From the NCBI RefSeq assembly GCF_001447785.1, contig NW_015161975.1:227320-291319 (forward strand): a stretch of 64,000 nucleotides of DNA, in the 5' to 3' direction. Positions 6,401-16,000 of the stretch are shown here, in pieces (positions within the stretch are counted from its first letter, which is position 1; every line of letters starts with the position of its first letter). The DNA is from Gekko japonicus. Lineage: Eukaryota. A program made the position numbers and the translations under genes. The notes under the pieces are model-generated. The model did no database searches, was not told the origin of the DNA, and saw only the letters and a list, made by a program, of their open reading frames with translations.

Positions 6401-9400
6401 ACAAAATCCCACCGGCTCAAGCTGAAAGGTATCAGGCGGTAAGTGACGCGAAAGGTCTCTGTCTGAACCCCTGGAAATAACACTGACCTTGAAAGAGGAG
6501 CGGCCTGACATGACACAAAGCCTCATGTTTAAAACAAGGAATCAAATAACGTTGAGGCTCACTACGTAGAGTGCTCCAGCAAGGCCCGCTGGGTTACAAG
6601 CTAACATTTCAGTCAAGGAGGCAAGTTTCAAGCTCACCAAACTGTCAACTGTTACCTACATCTCTTAGACCAGAACCGGGTAGGCTAACAGCCACCGCTC
6701 ACCTTTTGCCTGCAGAGGGGCTCCTTTTTGGTCTCTTCCGACTTCACCTCCTGCTGTGCGGCGTCCTTCGGTATGCTGACCGCCAAGACGTCGTTGATGG
6801 TGGAACCCACCACCATGATTTTGGAGCCGTTGATGACTTTGATTTCCCGCAGCGTCTTCTCCTCTGGCAAAAGCCCTTTGAACATGACTTTTTGCATCGT
6901 GGGAGGAAGGCCTGCACCAGGAGAAATCCAACAAAAACTGCTTTTAGCCCGGATGAGGTTTTTTCCACTGCTGCAGGAAGTGGTGGGGCTGCTACAAGCA
7001 TACACAGATTTTAAAAGGGATCGGATAAACATCTGGAGCAGAGGACCTTGAGTGGCTATTTGCCACCTTGTACAGATGGAACACTCTGTCGGGGGCAGTG
7101 ATGCTCTGACTTCTTGGTGCTTTTGGGGGGGCAAGAGTAGGAGGACTCCTAGAGTTCTGGCCCTGCTGGGGGACCTCCAGATGGCATCTGGTTTTTGGCC
7201 ACTGTATGACACAGAGTGTTGTACTGGATGGGCCATTAGCATGATCCAACAGGGCTTATGTTCTTATGTCTGGGGCAGCGATGCTCTGTATCCTTGGTGC
7301 TGAAGGAGCAAGAGTGTGAGGGGTTCTGGCCCCGCTGGTGGACCTCCTGATGGCACCTGGGTTTTGGCCACTGTGTGACACAGAGTGTTGTACTGGATGG
7401 GCCATTGGCCAGATCCAACCTGGCTTCTCTTATGTTCTTACGTCTGGGGCATAAGAACATAAGAGATGCCAATGTTGGATCAGGCCAAAGGCCCATCCAG
7501 TCCAACACTCTGTGTCACACAGTAGCCAGAAATACCAGGTGCCATCAGGAGGTCCACCAGTGGGGCCAGGACATTAGAAGCCCTCCCACTGTTGTCCCCT
7601 CCCCCCAAGCACCAAGATGAGAGAGTATTTGAAGCTGTCCATGCTTGTAGCACCCACCACTTCCTGTGGCAGTGAATTCCATGTGTTAATCACTCTTTGG
7701 GTGAAGAAGTACTTCCTTTTATCCGTTCTAACCTGACCGCTCTGCAGTTTCATGGAGTGCCCACGAGTTCTTGTATTGTGAGAAAGGGAGAAAAGTACCT
7801 CTTTCTTTACCTGCTCTTTCCCATGCATAATCTTATAAACCTCGATCATGTCACCCCTCAGTCGTCTTTTCTCCAAGCTAAAGAGCCCTAAGCGCTTTAA
7901 CCTTTCCTCATAGGGAAAGTGTTCCAACCCTTTTATCATTCGAGTTGCCCTTTTCTGCACTTTTTCCAAAGCTATAATATCCTTTTTAAGGTGTGGGGAC
8001 CAGAACTGCACACAGTATTCCAAATGAGGTCTCACCATTGATTTATATAGGGGCATTATGATATTGGCTGATCTGTTTTCAATGATGCTCTGTCTGCTGG
8101 GGGAGGTCAAGAGTGGGGGGGCTTCTGAGGTTCTGGCCTCACTGACGCCCCCTGGGTGACACAGAGCACTGGACTGGGCTGGCTACTGGCTTGACCCGAC
8201 AGGGCTCCTCTCATGCTCTAAAAAAGGCAGGGGTGTGTTGGGGGTGGGGGTAGTGGGGACCACTATTCCCTCTAAGCTGAGTTAGTGTGAGCTAGCTCAG
8301 AGTTTTTTAGCCTCCGGCTCAGGCATTTTTGTCTCCGCTCAGGAAGGACCACTCCAGAGCAAACTGATTTATGCAGTAGCCAAATTAGCTTGCTTACAAC
8401 TTTAATGCCAGTGGCTCACAAAACAGGATTTCGGCTCACAAGACTCCACTGCTTAAAGGGAGCATTGGTTGGAACTTCTTAGATGCGCCCCCCCCCCCCA
8501 ACACACCACAACACACAAAACACACNNNNNNNNNNNNNNNNNNNNNNNNNNNNNNNNNNNNNNNNNNNNNNNNNNNNNNNNNNNNNNNNNNNNNNNNNNN
8601 NNNNNNNNNNNNNNNNNNNNNNNNNNNNNNNNNNNNNNNNNNNNNNNNNNNNNNNNNNNNNNNNNNNNNNNNNNNNNNNNNNNNNNNNNNNNNNNNNNNN
8701 NNNNNNNNNNNNNNNNNNNNNNNNNNNNNNNNNNNNNNNNNNNNNNNNNNNNNNNNNNNNNNNNNNNNNNNNNNNNNNNNNNNNNNNNNNNNNNNNNNNN
8801 NNNNNNNNNNNNNNNNNNNNNNNNNNNNNNNNNNNNNNNNNNNNNNNNNNNNNNNNNNNNNNNNNNNNNNNNNNNNNNNNNNNNNNNNNNNNNNNNNNNN
8901 NNNNNNNNNNNNNNNNNNNNNNNNNNNNNNNNNNNNNNNNNNNNNNNNNNNNNNNNNNNNNNNNNNNNNNNNNNNNNNNNGTCGCCAAATCGCTCGCTCA
9001 CAGCTTGGCTCACAAAGTAAGGTTTCGGCTCAGAGGGAGGTGTTGGTGTGGGGGGAGAGGCTGCCGCCCCCTCTCCCCCAGGCTCCCCCACCCCACCCCC
9101 CCTCACCGGTCAGGGCGTGGATCTTCTCCTTGAGCTCGGCGCCCGTGCTGCCCAGCGGGAACTTGACGTCGTACTTGTTCTTGTTCCAGATGACCTTCAG
9201 CTCCACCAGCTCCTTCTCCGGGCCGGGCGAGGAGGGGTCGCCGCCGTTGCTGACCGAGGCCTGGGCGGCGGCGGCGGCGGCAGAGGACGAAGAAGGCGAC
9301 TCCCCGGGCGGGGGCTCCCCCTCGGGCTCCTCCGTCTGGGCGGCGGCGGCGGGGTCCTGGGCGGGCGCGGGCCCGGGCTGGCCGTCCTCCCGGCTCCCCA

Positions 9401-10008: not shown

Positions 10009-13000
10009 GTGAGGCCTCGCAGGGGGAGGCAGGCTGGCAGGCAGCCGAAGGGGGGCATGCGCATCCAAGGCTCCCTCTCTTGAGCCGCGGAGCCTTGTGA
10101 GCAGAAATCCTGCTTCCTGAGCTCAGCGGGCATGAAAGTTGGGAGCCATGAGCCATTTGGCTGCTGCATAAAATCAGTTTCCTCTGGAGCCCCGTCCCTT
10201 CCTGAGCTGAGACAAAAACGTGTGAGCTGGAGGCTGAAGAAACTGAGCTGGCTCGCACTAAACTCAGCTTAGAGGGAACGCCGGTTGCATTGCATGCCCC
10301 CCCCCCCCAGCCGGCCGAAGGGTGCCATCCCGTGCTCCCCCTAGGCTGTGNNNNNNNNNNNNNNNNNNNNNNNNNNNNNNNNNNNNNNNNNNNNNNNNNN
10401 NNNNNNNNNNNNNNNNNNNNNNNNNNNNNNNNNNNNNNNNNNNNNNNNNNNNNNNNNNNNNNNNNNNNNNNNNNNNNNNNNNNNNNNNNNNNNNNNNNNN
10501 NNNNNNNNNNNNNNNNNNNNNNNNNNNNNNNNNNNNNNNNNNNNNNNNNNNNNNNNNNNNNNNNNNNNNNNNNNNNNNNNCTTCCGCTTTTGCATCACCT
10601 CGGAGGGGAGCCCGCCGAAGGGTTGCATCCAGTGCTCCCTCTAAGCGTGGGGTCTTGTGAGCAAAAATTCTACTTTGTGAGCTCAACTGGCATGAAAGCG
10701 GTGAGCGAGAGATTGGGCTATACTGCGTAAATAAGTCTGCTCTGGAGCCCCGTCCTTCCTGAGCTAGAACAGAAACGCATGAGCCGGAGGCTAAAAAACC
10801 GTGAGCTGGCTCGCACTAAACTCAGCTTAGAGGGAACACTGCTTGCTATGGTGTTTGAAGGTTAAAAGTCCGCTTACTGGGACTCTGTGGATCTTAGCCT
10901 TGCAGGCTGTGTGCCAGGTTTCAGGCCTGACGTACGTGGTAGAAAAGGTGTGAAAAGGAACAAAAAGGTGTGAGACGGAGGCTAAAAGACTGTGAGCTGG
11001 CTAAACTCAGCTTAGAGGGAATGCACTAAACTCAGCTTAGAGGGAATGCCGGTTGCATTGCATGCCCCCCCCAAGCCTGCCGAAGGGTTGCATCCAGTGC
11101 TCCCTCTAAGCTGTGGGGTCTTGTGAGCAAAAATTCTACTTTCTGAGCTCAGCTGGCATTAAAGCAGTGAGCGAGAGATTGGGCTATACTGCGTAAATCA
11201 GTTTGCTCTGGAGCCCCATCCCTTCCTGAGCTAGAACAGAAACACGTGAGCCGGAGGCTAAAAAACCGTAAGCTGGCTCGCACTAAACTCAGCTTAGAGG
11301 GAACACTGCTTGTTATGGTGTTTGAAGGTTAAAAGTCGGCTTACTGTGACTCTGTGGATCTTAGCCTTGCAGGCTGTGTGCCAGGTTTCAGGCCTGACGT
11401 ACGTGGTAGAAAAGGAATCCAATTTTTTCCTGTGTAGGCTTATGGAAGAGGATCTCCGTGCAGTTATTGTATATCAGCTGTTACAGCATCCTGCATCCTT
11501 TCCTGTCATGTCTTTGTGACATCTCATTGCCCTGTAGTCTGCTCAGGAACACCTTCTTGGATTTTAGTTGCACCTTGGCTCAGTTGCTTGCTCTTTCTCT
11601 GAAGAATTCCTAAGAAGTTTTATTTGTAGGTAGACTGCTCCCAACAGGGAGTCTCCACTCCCAATTGCAACAGCTCTCTATCTCAGTCTCTGCCCTTCCT
11701 CCATGGGACTCACAGGAGGGCAGGAGGTTCTCCTCTCTTAAGAACATAAGAGAAGCCGATGTTGGATCAGGCCAATGGCCCATCCTGTCCAACACTCTGT
11801 CTGTCACACAGTGGCCAAGAATACCAGGGGCCCTTAGGAGGTCCAGCAGTGGGGCCAAGGACACCAGAAGCCCTCCCACTGTTGCCCCCCCCAAGCACCA
11901 AGAGGACAGAGCATCATCTGCCCCAGAGTCCCTATCTATACCTCTGCTCCATATGCTTATCTAATGCCCTCTTGAAGCCGTCCAGGCTTCCATATTAGGC
12001 CCCCAGCAGCCCAGTGAAGTAAGTGAGGCCGAGAGAGATCGTGTGTGCGTCTGGTCCCCAAATGCCCCACAGCCTTCGCAGCCCCCGTTTCCCTGGGCCT
12101 AGCACTGCCACGCTCCCTTGGTGACTCTCTGTCTCTTTTGCACAGGTTTCCTGCACCTGGGGGGCCTGCGGACGGCTTTGTACAACTACATTTTTGCCAA
12201 AAAGCACGGAGGACGCTTCATCCTTCGGCTGGAAGACACGGACCAGAGCCGGATCGTGCCCGGAGCCGCCGACGGGATCGAGGACATGCTGGAGTGGGCA
12301 GGTGACCCCTGTTGGCTTCCTTCGGGCCCCTTCCCCTCTTTCTCTGCGGTTGTCCCCAAATCGTTAATCTCATCAAACGGGTACCGGCTGTCTTCTCCTG
12401 TAAGTGGAACCCAAACCCTTTTCCTCTCGACTCGGCCAGAGCCGCTCCCAGAGAGGAGGACGAGGAACCTGCCCTTTGCCTCCCTGGCCAGCATGCTCTT
12501 AGGAACTGGGAAGGAAGCCGCGGCTCTCTGGCCTCCCTCCCACAGGGCTCCTGCGACAAAGAGGTGCAGGGGTGGGACGAACAACGGGGGCTCTCCTTCA
12601 TGCAGCAAATGACCCCAGTCGGAGCGCCCTTCTCTCTGGCCGGCCACCACGCCGACTGTCCCCCTCTCTGCCGCGCTGATCCTCTTGTCCGACCCGCTGT
12701 GAGTGCGTAGCTGGCGGCCACCCACCCAAAAGAGCTCGTGAGGAAGCTGGAGCGTCTCTCCGAGCCCACCCCCCCCGAGTTCCCGCACAGTTGCCCATGA
12801 AAGGTCTTGCGGGCCCCACAGAGATGGGATTCTCATGTGTGTGCAAGGACATCTGGCCACCGCCTGTGTGGATGGACTGGACTCCTGCTCGGGCCTGGAG
12901 CCAGGATCTGGTGGCTTGTGGGGCCGAGGTTCTCAGTGCGGAAAGGAAAGCCAGAATTCTGAGGATTCTGCATAGCTGTTCTTAACCGTTTAGCCCAGTG

Positions 13001-16000
13001 GTGGCGAACCTATGGCTCGGGTGCCAGAGGTGGCACTCAGAGCCCTCTCTGTGGGCACACGTGCCATCGCCCCAGCCAGGCCCAGACCATCATTAAAGTG
13101 TCGAATTCTCTGCCAAATAATGTTAAGTAAATGAAAGCATTTGGGATTGCTTTCCTTACTTTGTTTGGATCATCTTAAGTTAATGTATGAGTTGTTTTTT
13201 CTAAAGTAAAACCTCAGTATTCAGGTTAAATTGCCGTGTTGGCACTTTGCGATAAATAAGTGGGTTTTGGGTCGCAGTTTGGGCACTCGGTCTCTAAAAG
13301 GTTCGCCATCACTGCCATATGGTGTTCATTTCCAGCGTTGATCTTACTCGACGTGCACAGGCTGTCGATAATTCAACAGGAACCAGGCTATACAGTAGTT
13401 ACTAGTGATGGTACTAGAAATGTGCACCTAAGAACACATGAATGCAGACAGCATTTCTTCCTGTTCCAATTCTCTCTCTCTCTCATATGCAGGCATGTGC
13501 CCAGCTCTGCCAGACTCCCTGCTATTGCCCTTGGCTCCCTCCCCGTTGCCCGCCAGGCTCCCCCCTGGTTCTGGACGGATGCGGGTGCTGCAATATATGT
13601 GCTCGCAGGCTGGGAGAGCCCTGCAACCACCTTCATGTGTGTGATCAGAGCCAGGGTCTCGTCTGTGACTACAGCACTGCTCCTGCCGGGAGAAGAGGAG
13701 AAGGCACCTGCAATTGTGAGTTGACGGTCAGTCTTTTCAGGAATCCCTGAGGCACAAAGGGAGGGGATGTCCTTAAAGCTAGATAAAGCCATATCCTTTT
13801 TTGTTTCTCACAAAACAGTGGCCAGTAAACCAGCTCTCTCCTTTGGCCTTCTCCTGTTTTTACATATTTGGAAGTTCTGAACTTCAAATCAAGAGTTGGG
13901 CCAGACTGTAGATTTCACATATTCCCACCATTTGGTGGGCATCTTCACTGGGAAAGGATAAGGCTCTTGCAGTCGCATCAATCTAACTTGGTAATGACTG
14001 TTCAGAAATTGGGTACACACTACGGGCTTCCTTTTACGTCACCACCGTTTAGGGGCACCCACCAACAACCTGGCCGCTGCATTCTGCACCAGCTGCAGCC
14101 TCCGAATTTGATTTTTATCCCGTCCATTCCGGCCTAAGCTGGTAACCAGGTAAAAGTTATCATAATAAATAAAACATAGTACATAAAAACATTAATGCAA
14201 TACAATAGTATAAACAATATTAAAATCAGATATTTTAAGGTGCTAGCAATTCCAGTATTTACTTTAGTTCTATTGGTCCACTGCGATTGTGGGGGAGAGG
14301 GGTGGGGGGCTGGGCCAGGCAGTAGTCACTGGGACCTGTGGCTCAGGGCTTCCACCATGGTTATCGGTTATTACTAATAGCACTGTTGATGGTTGTACTG
14401 GTGGTGGTGGTGGCAGCTCCACAGGCCTGGCGGAAGAGCTCCGTTTTACAGGCCCTGTGGAACTGTGAAAGGTCCCTGACAGTTCTCAGCTGCTCCTGCA
14501 AGTTAATCCCTTCTGCCAGCCTAAGCAACGGTTCTGAGAACAAGCTGGCAGGTGGGAGGGGTGTGTGTGACTTCTACAGTCAAAAAAGCTAACACTTAGG
14601 CAGAAAAACCCTCTTAAAGGAGACCAGTTTCTTGACCCAGAGTTAGAAGGTGTCCTAGAGGTCACCTACTCCAACCCCCTTGCTCAGTGCGGGAACTAGG
14701 CAACTGCAGCACCCCACTCTGCTTAAAGGAACAGACACCTTTTAAAAAGTGTTTTAAAATGATAGGAAAAAAAGCATTTACAGAAGAAATTCTTGGGGGG
14801 GGGGCTGTGCCTTTAAGAAAGCCCCACCGTGCCTACAGGCCTGCTCCTGCTCAGAGCCCAGTTTGGTACGTGGCGAGAGTATTTGCTGAGCTCCGATACT
14901 GACTTGTTCTGTAGGCAGGTCTCGGGGCGGTCGTAACAAACGTGGCTCACCTTTGGGAAGGATGAGGGAACTTACTCATCCTCCCGTTCTGGCTCTCCCC
15001 TCCCAGGTATCCCTCCCGACGAAAGCCCTCGCCGGGGCGGGCCGGCCGGCCCTTACCAGCAATCTCATAGGCTCGATATCTACAGAGAAGCCGTCGAGCG
15101 GCTGCTTGAGGAGGGGTCCGCTTACCGCTGCTTCTGCACACCCCAGCGCCTGGAGCTCCTGAAGAAGGCCGCGCTACAGAACCAGGAGACGCCACGGTAA
15201 GGGCTTGTGGCATGGGTGGGGGAGGCCCCCCCGGGGCCTCGCCCGCCTCTCACAGCCTCGCCACCAAAGGTCTCGTAGATCCCCACTTTGTGTTATTCCT
15301 TAGTTCTGTCGATCTGTCAGCTTCTTCAGGAACCACTCAGACGCAATAAGTCCTTTTACAGGTTTTATTGAGAAAACCGATTTAGTTGCTGTGCAGTTGA
15401 ACTTTTTGACAGAACTAAGGAATAATACAAAGTGGGAATCTACGAGGCCTTTGGCCCAGCCCTCATTCATACGTCATGATTATGTAGTCCGTAGACAGGT
15501 TAATACAGTGCAATTGGGACGGGGTGTGAATGTTATCACTTGAGTCTCTCCGCAAGGCCATGAGAATGAGAAGCAGCGAAAGTTCCCTCCGGCCTTTGCG
15601 GAGGATGCTTCCTTTTCACAGAGGTACAAGCGCAGCTAATCTACGGTTCACACAGGCATGTCTCAGTCGCCCCCTCTCCCAGGGATGTCAGAGGAGGACC
15701 TTGCAGACAGATTGATACGATGCCAGCAGGTGCTAAACGGGAACTTGGGAACTACAGGCGGGGAGGGAGAACAGCTGGCGGAGCAATAACAGAGCATACC
15801 TGTGTACATCAGAGAACCCTAGTGACAGGGAGGATGGCCCGGGCAAGGGTCCGGTTCTGACAGTGGGTCAGCTGAGTGCCTGGGGTGAGCCCCACGCGGG
15901 CTCAGCTGGAACGGGCGCAGCCCCTCGCACGTCTGTCTGAGCCTCTCCCCTGGTTTCCCTGCCTCTGCAGGTATGACAACAGGTGCCGCCACCTGACCGC

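What the first reader, a model, noticed from the sequence alone, without database searches (positions are those of the whole stretch)
13315..14030. Orphan, intact CCN5/WISP2 IGFBP exon inside EARS2 intron 2
Seen: a 223-nt exon (13493-13715) with an open frame, all 12 IGFBP-module cysteines including GCGCCxxC, a strong pyrimidine tract plus AG, and a GTGAGT donor. It lies in the same sense as EARS2, in flanks less GC-rich than the surroundings, about 180 bp from a hAT-like MITE that lacks a matching TSD. Known: QLCxxPCxCPWx[32 protein letters not shown] is characteristic of CCN5, which is not part of the UBFD1-EARS2-GGA2-COG7 block in human. No signal-peptide, VWC or TSP1 exon is visible here. 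Inference: the retained intron flanks point to DNA-level capture or transduction rather than a processed retrocopy. If spliced into EARS2 (phase-1 intron), it reads to TGA at 13642-13644, so it would act as a poison exon triggering NMD.
Basis: partly seen in the sequence, partly recalled or inferred. Interest (0 to 1): 0.85.

Follow-up and report, generated by a model that had tools for sequence, protein, structure and literature searches.

The report
CCN5 exon copy, likely assembly chimera
A letter-perfect copy of one CCN5 exon with its flanks sits inside an intron of a glutamyl-tRNA synthetase gene (likely EARS2) in this lizard draft genome, but it is likely an assembly error made while filling a gap through a common small transposon, not a real gene capture.

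Summary
The exon is in the sequence (13493-13715, IGFBP module, best match a gecko CCN5). The complete CCN5 gene lies on another scaffold (C7885). The two places share 1,050 bp: a 319-bp MITE plus 731 bp of CCN5 intron/exon. All 12 differences lie in the MITE; the next 771 bp are identical. So the host intron's own MITE switches into the flank of a different MITE copy; MITE and exon did not move together. The borrowed 731 bp replaces an inferred 700-745 bp of host repeat sequence. Contigs from two other DNA runs of the species carry the MITE's left junction, but run past the right breakpoint into other sequence with no extra depth. An RNA run has no read on the exon. Three other MITE copies in this assembly show borrowed flanks; one ends exactly at an N gap. 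Verdict: likely a gap-filling chimera (about 0.8). A private, very recent template-switch insertion remains possible (about 0.15), because the right junction has no Ns and repeats 9 bp of the left flank. Reads of the assembled animal could not be tested.

The parts
12146..12301 (+). Host gene exon 2 (glutamyl-tRNA synthetase, likely EARS2); ends in phase 1
   Evidence: RNA depth about 24 in X22
12892..12995 (.). Left part of an older repeat ('R') into which the MITE inserted; its last 8 bp (12988-12995) are the left target-site copy
12996..13314 (.). 319-bp hAT-like MITE, the host intron's own copy (2 private changes; the C7885 copy has 10). The switch to the donor lies after 13274
   Evidence: left junction present in contigs of X1 and X2
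13315..14045 (+). 731 bp borrowed from CCN5 intron 1 / exon 2 / intron 2 (C7885:79443-78713, minus), 100% identical; starts with the donor's own TSD
13315..13417 (.). Right half of an older repeat that the donor MITE interrupts; the left half is at C7885 and not in the window, which fixes the direction donor to window
   Evidence: both halves adjoin in 18 of 18 other copies
13493..13715 (+). Copy of CCN5 exon 2 (IGFBP module), phase 0 in, phase 1 out
13642..13644 (+). Stop codon reached if the exon were spliced to host exon 2
14044..14052 (.). Right junction, no Ns; these 9 bp repeat 12985-12993 of the left flank
14048..14111 (-). 64-bp stub of a young LINE (L2-like, label recalled), internal ORF2 piece; its 3' part (about 635-680 bp in other copies) is missing from the window
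14108..14476 (-). Older LINE 3' remnant ('S'), joined to the stub by 4 shared bases; the join is unique in the assembly
14477..14560 (.). Repeat R resumes, 57-58 bp further on than where it stopped at 12995 (right end not mapped)
15007..15196 (+). Host gene exon 3
   Evidence: RNA depth about 23 in X22

Best explanation
The exon copy in the host intron is likely an assembly artefact: a gap-filling step likely walked from the intron into its 319-bp MITE, left through the flank of another copy of the same MITE in CCN5 intron 1, and copied 731 bp until the gap was full. Shown: the shared segment and its breakpoints, the donor locus, the switch inside the MITE, and similar borrowed flanks at other MITE copies. 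Inferred: the true allele is MITE + TSD + about 58 bp of repeat R + about 650 bp of young LINE, all repeats that a short-read assembler leaves as a gap. The assembler's behaviour is also inferred; which program was used is not known here.
For: (1) 12 differences in the first 279 bp, 0 in the next 771 bp (Fisher p 1e-7). The window MITE has 2 private changes, the donor MITE 10. (2) Length match: repeat R lacks 57-58 bp (4 of 7 copies; the other three gave 47, 125, 129), and the LINE extends 635-679 bp further in 7 of 9 copies. With the 8-bp TSD that predicts about 700-745 bp; 731 bp is borrowed. (3) In X1, X2 and X4 the contig on the segment stops fitting at exactly 14045 and runs on for 432, 461 and 435 other letters without a break. 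Depth at 13501 (85.7, 92.7) equals the upstream intron (83.3, 78.5) in X1 and X2, which do carry the MITE's left junction. (4) The pattern recurs. L055 has 315 bp identical to another scaffold replacing about 357 bp of a CR1-like repeat, also without Ns (one measurable copy). L051's borrowed 1,767 bp ends exactly at an N gap. The same MITE exit stands on 3 scaffolds. L104's right flank belongs to a different MITE copy with its own perfect TSD. 8 of 67 sampled copies lack a TSD. (5) The assembly has 191,500 pieces and 10 N gaps in this window. Gaps are mostly repeats, and iterative gap extension can choose wrongly among repeat copies (PMC3626529, passages and supplement part 3).
Against: The right junction has no Ns. 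Its two bases 14046-14047 are neither the donor's nor the LINE's usual letters (0 against 51 copies), and they complete a 9-bp repeat of the left flank, which looks like a repair junction. The donor's last 9 bp match the MITE's terminal repeat at 7 of 9. The donor scaffold has an N gap 16 bp past the breakpoint, as a real fork would cause, though a dead-end contig would too. X1 and X2 carry another host haplotype (21 differences in 924 bp), so a private insertion is not excluded. Logan contigs drop rare variants, and only the best-supported joints and pieces were shown. Neither the predicted true allele nor a deletion allele was found elsewhere in the assembly. The length match rests on the inference that the LINE stub once had its 3' end here.
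Confidence: 0.8

Rival explanations
1. A real, very recent and private insertion made by double-strand-break repair. A break at or near the host MITE was repaired by copying from the ectopic MITE in CCN5 intron 1; synthesis ran 731 bp into the flank and the end was rejoined through a short templated patch, deleting about 700 bp of host repeats. The allele would carry a potential poison exon.
For: N-free junction with a 9-bp repeat of the left flank and non-LINE bases. Switch inside shared MITE homology. Donor N gap beside the breakpoint. Template switching at DNA transposons is documented in animals (PMC8277862, passages), as are break-repair patches from distant sites (PMC5110952, passages).
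Against: Not seen in X1, X2 or X4. It gives no reason for the borrowed length to match the missing length here and in L055. Zero differences in 771 bp, although the reference differs from X1 at 5 of 526 sites there. Sister cases exist in the same assembly, one ending at an N gap.
Confidence: 0.15
2. Transposase-driven end-bypass or macro-transposition: the CCN5 MITE moved together with 731 bp of flank, using a cryptic terminal repeat at 14045.
For: The donor end resembles the terminal repeat at 7 of 9; the left flank fits the family's target pattern and partly recurs on the right.
Against: The window MITE lacks all 10 private changes of the donor MITE. The MITE is present at this site in animals lacking the right junction. 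There is no exact 8-bp duplication around the 1,050 bp, and host sequence is missing. Only two copies of the exit exist.
Confidence: 0.03
3. An old, fixed, selected exon capture that regulates the host gene as a poison exon.
For: Intact splice sites, same sense, stop codon 71 nt before the exon end.
Against: 100% identity includes 508 bp of intron, so no time has passed. Absent from other animals' contigs. RNA depth is 0 on the exon against about 24 and 23 on the flanking exons in X22 (that animal may lack the allele, and decay or the human-likeness filter could hide reads).
Confidence: 0.02

Closest known systems
Local misassembly by short-read gap closing across a repeat (GapCloser-type; PMC3626529, 10.1101/2021.11.24.469861)
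   Same: Switch inside a high-copy repeat, borrowed flank identical to another scaffold, fill of about the gap's length, sister cases in the same assembly, absent from independent contigs.
   Different: The junction carries a 9-bp repeat of the left flank that a plain abutment does not explain; the program used for this assembly is not known here.
Pack-TIR formed by gap-filling repair or FoSTeST (PMC8277862)
   Same: Host-gene sequence next to a DNA transposon, with a template switch implied.
   Different: The captured DNA lies outside the terminal repeats, not between them; no TSD encloses the unit; the switch uses long MITE homology on one side.
Class 2 templated sequence insertion polymorphism (PMC5110952)
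   Same: Patch from a distant locus, no TSD, no poly(A), local deletion and a few extra bases at one junction.
   Different: One end joins through homology in a shared MITE; its presence in real DNA is not shown.
CCN5/WISP2 exon 2 (IGFBP module)
   Same: Identical to exon 2 of the complete four-exon gene on C7885; 92% to a gecko CCN5.
   Different: No signal-peptide, VWC or TSP1 exon nearby; phase 0 entry does not fit the phase 1 host intron.

Membership tests
CCN5 exon 2 | IGFBP module with 12 cysteines and GCGCCxxC; best match CCN5 | tested here: met
CCN5 exon 2 | Parent locus with signal, VWC and TSP1 exons | tested here: met
   C7885 exons at 94350, 79265, 76313, about 75146
hAT-like MITE | Short terminal inverted repeats, high copy number | tested here: met
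   15 of 16 bases complementary; 1,029 candidates, a lower bound
hAT-like MITE | 8-bp target-site duplication | tested here: met
   59 of 67 sampled copies with 2 or fewer mismatches; perfect at the donor, not met at the window copy
hAT-like MITE | Matching autonomous hAT transposase | not tested
   The label hAT rests on TSD length and recall
Pack-TIR | Captured sequence lies between the two terminal repeats, unit bounded by a TSD | tested here: not met
   Capture starts after the right terminal repeat at 13314
End-bypass transduction / macro-transposon | Element and flank come from the same donor copy | tested here: not met
   12 of 279 against 0 of 771 differences
End-bypass transduction / macro-transposon | New 8-bp TSD around the whole unit, no loss of target DNA | tested here: not met
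   6 of 8 match; host repeat sequence missing
Processed retrocopy / LINE transduction | Introns lost or poly(A) tail with TSD | tested here: not met
   178 and 330 bp of intron kept; no tail
Class 2 templated insertion | End-joining marks (microhomology, small deletion, extra bases) | tested here: inconclusive
   2 extra bases and a 9-bp flank repeat, but a deletion of about 700 bp that matches the insert length
Class 2 templated insertion | Junction present in raw DNA of at least one individual | tested here: inconclusive
   Not seen in X1, X2, X4; the assembled animal's reads were not available
Poison exon | Frameshift with a stop more than 50-55 nt before the next junction | tested here: met
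   71 nt, in silico only
Poison exon | Inclusion seen in RNA, rising when decay is blocked | tested here: not met
   Depth 0 on 13478-14007 in X22; one run, 12% read, no decay block
Gap-filling chimera | Switch inside a high-copy repeat to a flank identical to another scaffold | tested here: met
Gap-filling chimera | Fill length close to the missing length | tested here: met
   731 against an inferred 700-745 bp
Gap-filling chimera | No junction reads and single-copy depth in the assembled animal | not testable with these tools
   No DNA run matching the reference haplotype was listed

The most novel reading that the evidence does not exclude
A young MITE family acts as a homology bridge in a living gecko: break repair starts in one copy, exits through another copy's flank, and drops intact foreign exons outside the terminal repeats. 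Here it would have made a private allele of an essential mitochondrial synthetase carrying a ready-made poison exon, and L055, L051 and L104 would be further events of the same kind.
Probability: 0.15. Interest if true: 0.5.

Novelty: not a real feature. Interest (0 to 1): 0.12.

Why it matters
If it is an artefact, it is a clean warning: gap closing through young MITEs can plant intact foreign exons with good splice sites and no Ns in introns. An old MITE copy joined to a zero-divergence flank, a missing TSD and a length-matched replacement give it away. If it is real, it would be a caught-in-the-act case of MITE-bridged exon capture in a vertebrate, with a testable effect on a mitochondrial tRNA synthetase transcript.

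Tried and rejected
Search of solved structures with the exon peptide: 0 hits. A protein search at near lengths found no close relative of the ORF; best 75%. Earlier findings: none. A cluster of differences between the window and X1/X2 at 12603-12882 was tested as a second borrowed stretch: single copy, rejected. Leftover copies of the predicted true allele or of a deletion allele: the one MITE-end-plus-TSD hit is chance, without a MITE; 0 hits for the deletion junction; none of 31 copies of the R continuation follows a MITE. The idea that 14046-14047 is a common LINE variant was rejected (0 against 51). L102's right flank is unique, so not every TSD-less copy has a borrowed flank; L184 looks like a small local deletion and L048 was not resolved. 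The automatic tail measure (470-641 bp) undercounts and found no end in 2 of 9 copies, so I used the alignment extents. The normal 12301-15007 splice joint was not among the 15 joints displayed (40 hidden), so it is not cited. Paper searches for this locus (gecko, CCN5, EARS2) gave one unrelated paper, and for this artefact type no paper on MITE-exit chimeras in the listings; the library lacks most subscription papers.

Full report
Observation. Window 13493-13715 is an open 223-nt exon with a pyrimidine tract, AG and GTGAGT. It encodes an IGFBP module (Pfam E 1e-11) whose best match among 106 hits is a gecko CCN5 at 92%, so the genome is likely a gecko's. The flanking exons 12146-12301 and 15007-15196 encode a bacterial-type glutamyl-tRNA synthetase; EARS2 is my recalled name for it. 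The host intron is phase 1 and the extra exon enters in phase 0, so inclusion would read to TGA at 13642-13644, 71 nt before the exon's end. No other CCN5 exon lies in the window.

The donor. The genome holds exactly one other full copy, at C7885. That place is the complete gene, with signal-peptide, IGFBP, VWC and TSP1 exons, and the first three splice into one open frame. The shared segment is window 12996-14045, 1,050 bp: a 319-bp MITE and 731 bp of CCN5 intron 1, exon 2 and intron 2. At C7885 the MITE has a perfect 8-bp TSD and interrupts an older repeat whose halves adjoin in 18 of 18 other copies; the window has only the right half. So C7885 is the donor.

The MITE did not travel with the exon. 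All 12 differences lie in 13017-13274; the following 771 bp are identical (Fisher p 1e-7). Against the commonest letter of 31 copies, the donor MITE has 10 private changes and the window MITE 2 (the copies were chosen for likeness to the window's). The window therefore starts in the host's own MITE and switches to the donor after 13274. This excludes co-transposition.

What is missing from the host. The left flank is a repeat (R) that in other copies continues 57-58 bp (4 of 7; others 47, 125, 129) to the point where it resumes in the window at 14477. Right of the borrowed DNA lies a 64-bp internal piece of a young LINE on the minus strand (L2-like is a recalled label), then an older LINE remnant at 14108-14476. 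In 7 of 9 other copies this LINE runs 635-679 bp further towards its 3' end, exactly where the CCN5 DNA now sits. LINE insertions keep their 3' end (established knowledge), so I infer the true allele had TSD, R and LINE 3' part, about 700-745 bp. The borrowed length is 731 bp.

Independent sequence. Of 24 listed runs I laid four: two DNA runs of the species (X1, X2; many loose ends begin at GATC, so likely proximity-ligation libraries), one of a related organism (X4) and one raw RNA run (X22). X1 and X2 each have a contig from 12100 into the MITE, so the MITE is real at this site, on a haplotype with 21 differences in 924 bp. In X1, X2 and X4 the contig on the borrowed part stops fitting at exactly 14045 and runs on unbroken for 432, 461 and 435 letters. 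Summed depth at 13501 (85.7, 92.7) equals the upstream intron (83.3, 78.5). X22 has depth 0 on 13478-14007 against about 24 and 23 on the host exons. Limits: contigs drop rare variants, most pieces and 40 joints were not shown, human-like records are filtered out, and none of these is shown to be the assembled animal.

Sister cases. Of 67 distinct MITE copies, 59 have a TSD with at most 2 mismatches and 8 do not (38 came from a query that included window flanks, and in the MITE-only set 6 of 39 lacked it). L055 has 315 bp identical to another scaffold's MITE flank in place of about 357 bp of a CR1-like repeat, joined without Ns (one copy measurable). L051 carries the same exit for 1,767 bp and stops exactly at an N gap; that exit stands on 3 scaffolds. 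L104's right flank belongs to a different MITE copy on C19168 with its own perfect TSD, in a duplication-rich region, so it is weaker evidence. L096 and L100 are local rearrangements; L102, L184 and L048 are not of this kind or unresolved. The assembly has 191,500 pieces and 10 N gaps in this window. The SOAPdenovo2 paper (PMC3626529; passages and supplement part 3) says most gaps are repeats, and that iterative extension can select wrongly among similar repeats and stops where reads disagree. A benchmark (10.1101/2021.11.24.469861; passages only, supplements closed) reports more misassemblies from that gap closer than from its own method. I do not know which program built this assembly.

Against the artefact reading. 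The right junction is free of Ns. Bases 14046-14047 come from neither the donor nor the usual LINE sequence (0 against 51) and complete a 9-bp repeat of 12985-12993. The donor's last 9 bp resemble the MITE's terminal repeat at 7 of 9. The donor has an N gap 16 bp past the breakpoint; with 4 gaps in 140 kb that is unlikely by chance, but both a real fork and a dead-end contig predict it. One way to reconcile these with an artefact is a second haplotype that lost the MITE and was rejoined through the shared five bases, with both haplotypes merged by the assembler; this is conjecture, and neither allele was found in the assembly. These points keep a real repair event at about 0.15.

Comparison with known things. 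It works like a gap-filling chimera. If real, it would work like template-switch repair at a DNA transposon (PMC8277862, passages) or a class 2 templated insertion (PMC5110952, passages), but it is not a Pack-TIR, because the capture lies outside the terminal repeats. Searches for this locus or this artefact type found nothing relevant in the listings, and no earlier scan notes.

Verdict. Observation confirmed; biological capture and poison-exon function not supported. Likely assembly artefact (0.8), interest 0.12.

Noticed in passing
window 12603-12882: 19 listed differences from both X1 and X2 are packed into 280 bp, many at C/T or G/A, while 12140-12602 shows only a 1-bp indel; single copy in the assembly. 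A divergent haplotype block, unexplained.
   Followed up: partly
L051, L055, L142 (C11934, C9505, C13964): The same MITE-to-retrotransposon exit (Copia-like, label recalled) stands on three scaffolds with three different left contexts, and no copy shows the matching left TSD.
   Followed up: yes
L100 (C13418:324736-325054): Two MITE copies 60 bp apart enclosed by one TSD; the spacer starts and ends with another near-TSD pair.
   Followed up: no
L096 (C11855:85496-85813): MITE between two copies of a 181-bp stretch that differ at a microsatellite, as if two haplotypes were assembled in tandem.
   Followed up: no
window 10075-11415: Several near-identical repeat units about 466 and 558 bp apart around an N gap at 10351-10580; possibly further gap-closing duplication.
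   Followed up: no
window 7628-8083: 456 bp, 98-99% identical to two places on C7885 (101537-101082, 69253-68798); likely a young repeat.
   Followed up: no
window 15264-15454: 47-bp inverted repeat, 94% complementary, 97 bp apart, in host intron 3; likely another small MITE.
   Followed up: no
window 13501-13955: Seven sites where X1 differs from the reference in the CCN5 segment carry the same letter in the related organism X4; X1 and X2 hold both alleles at 13501 and 13519.
   Followed up: no
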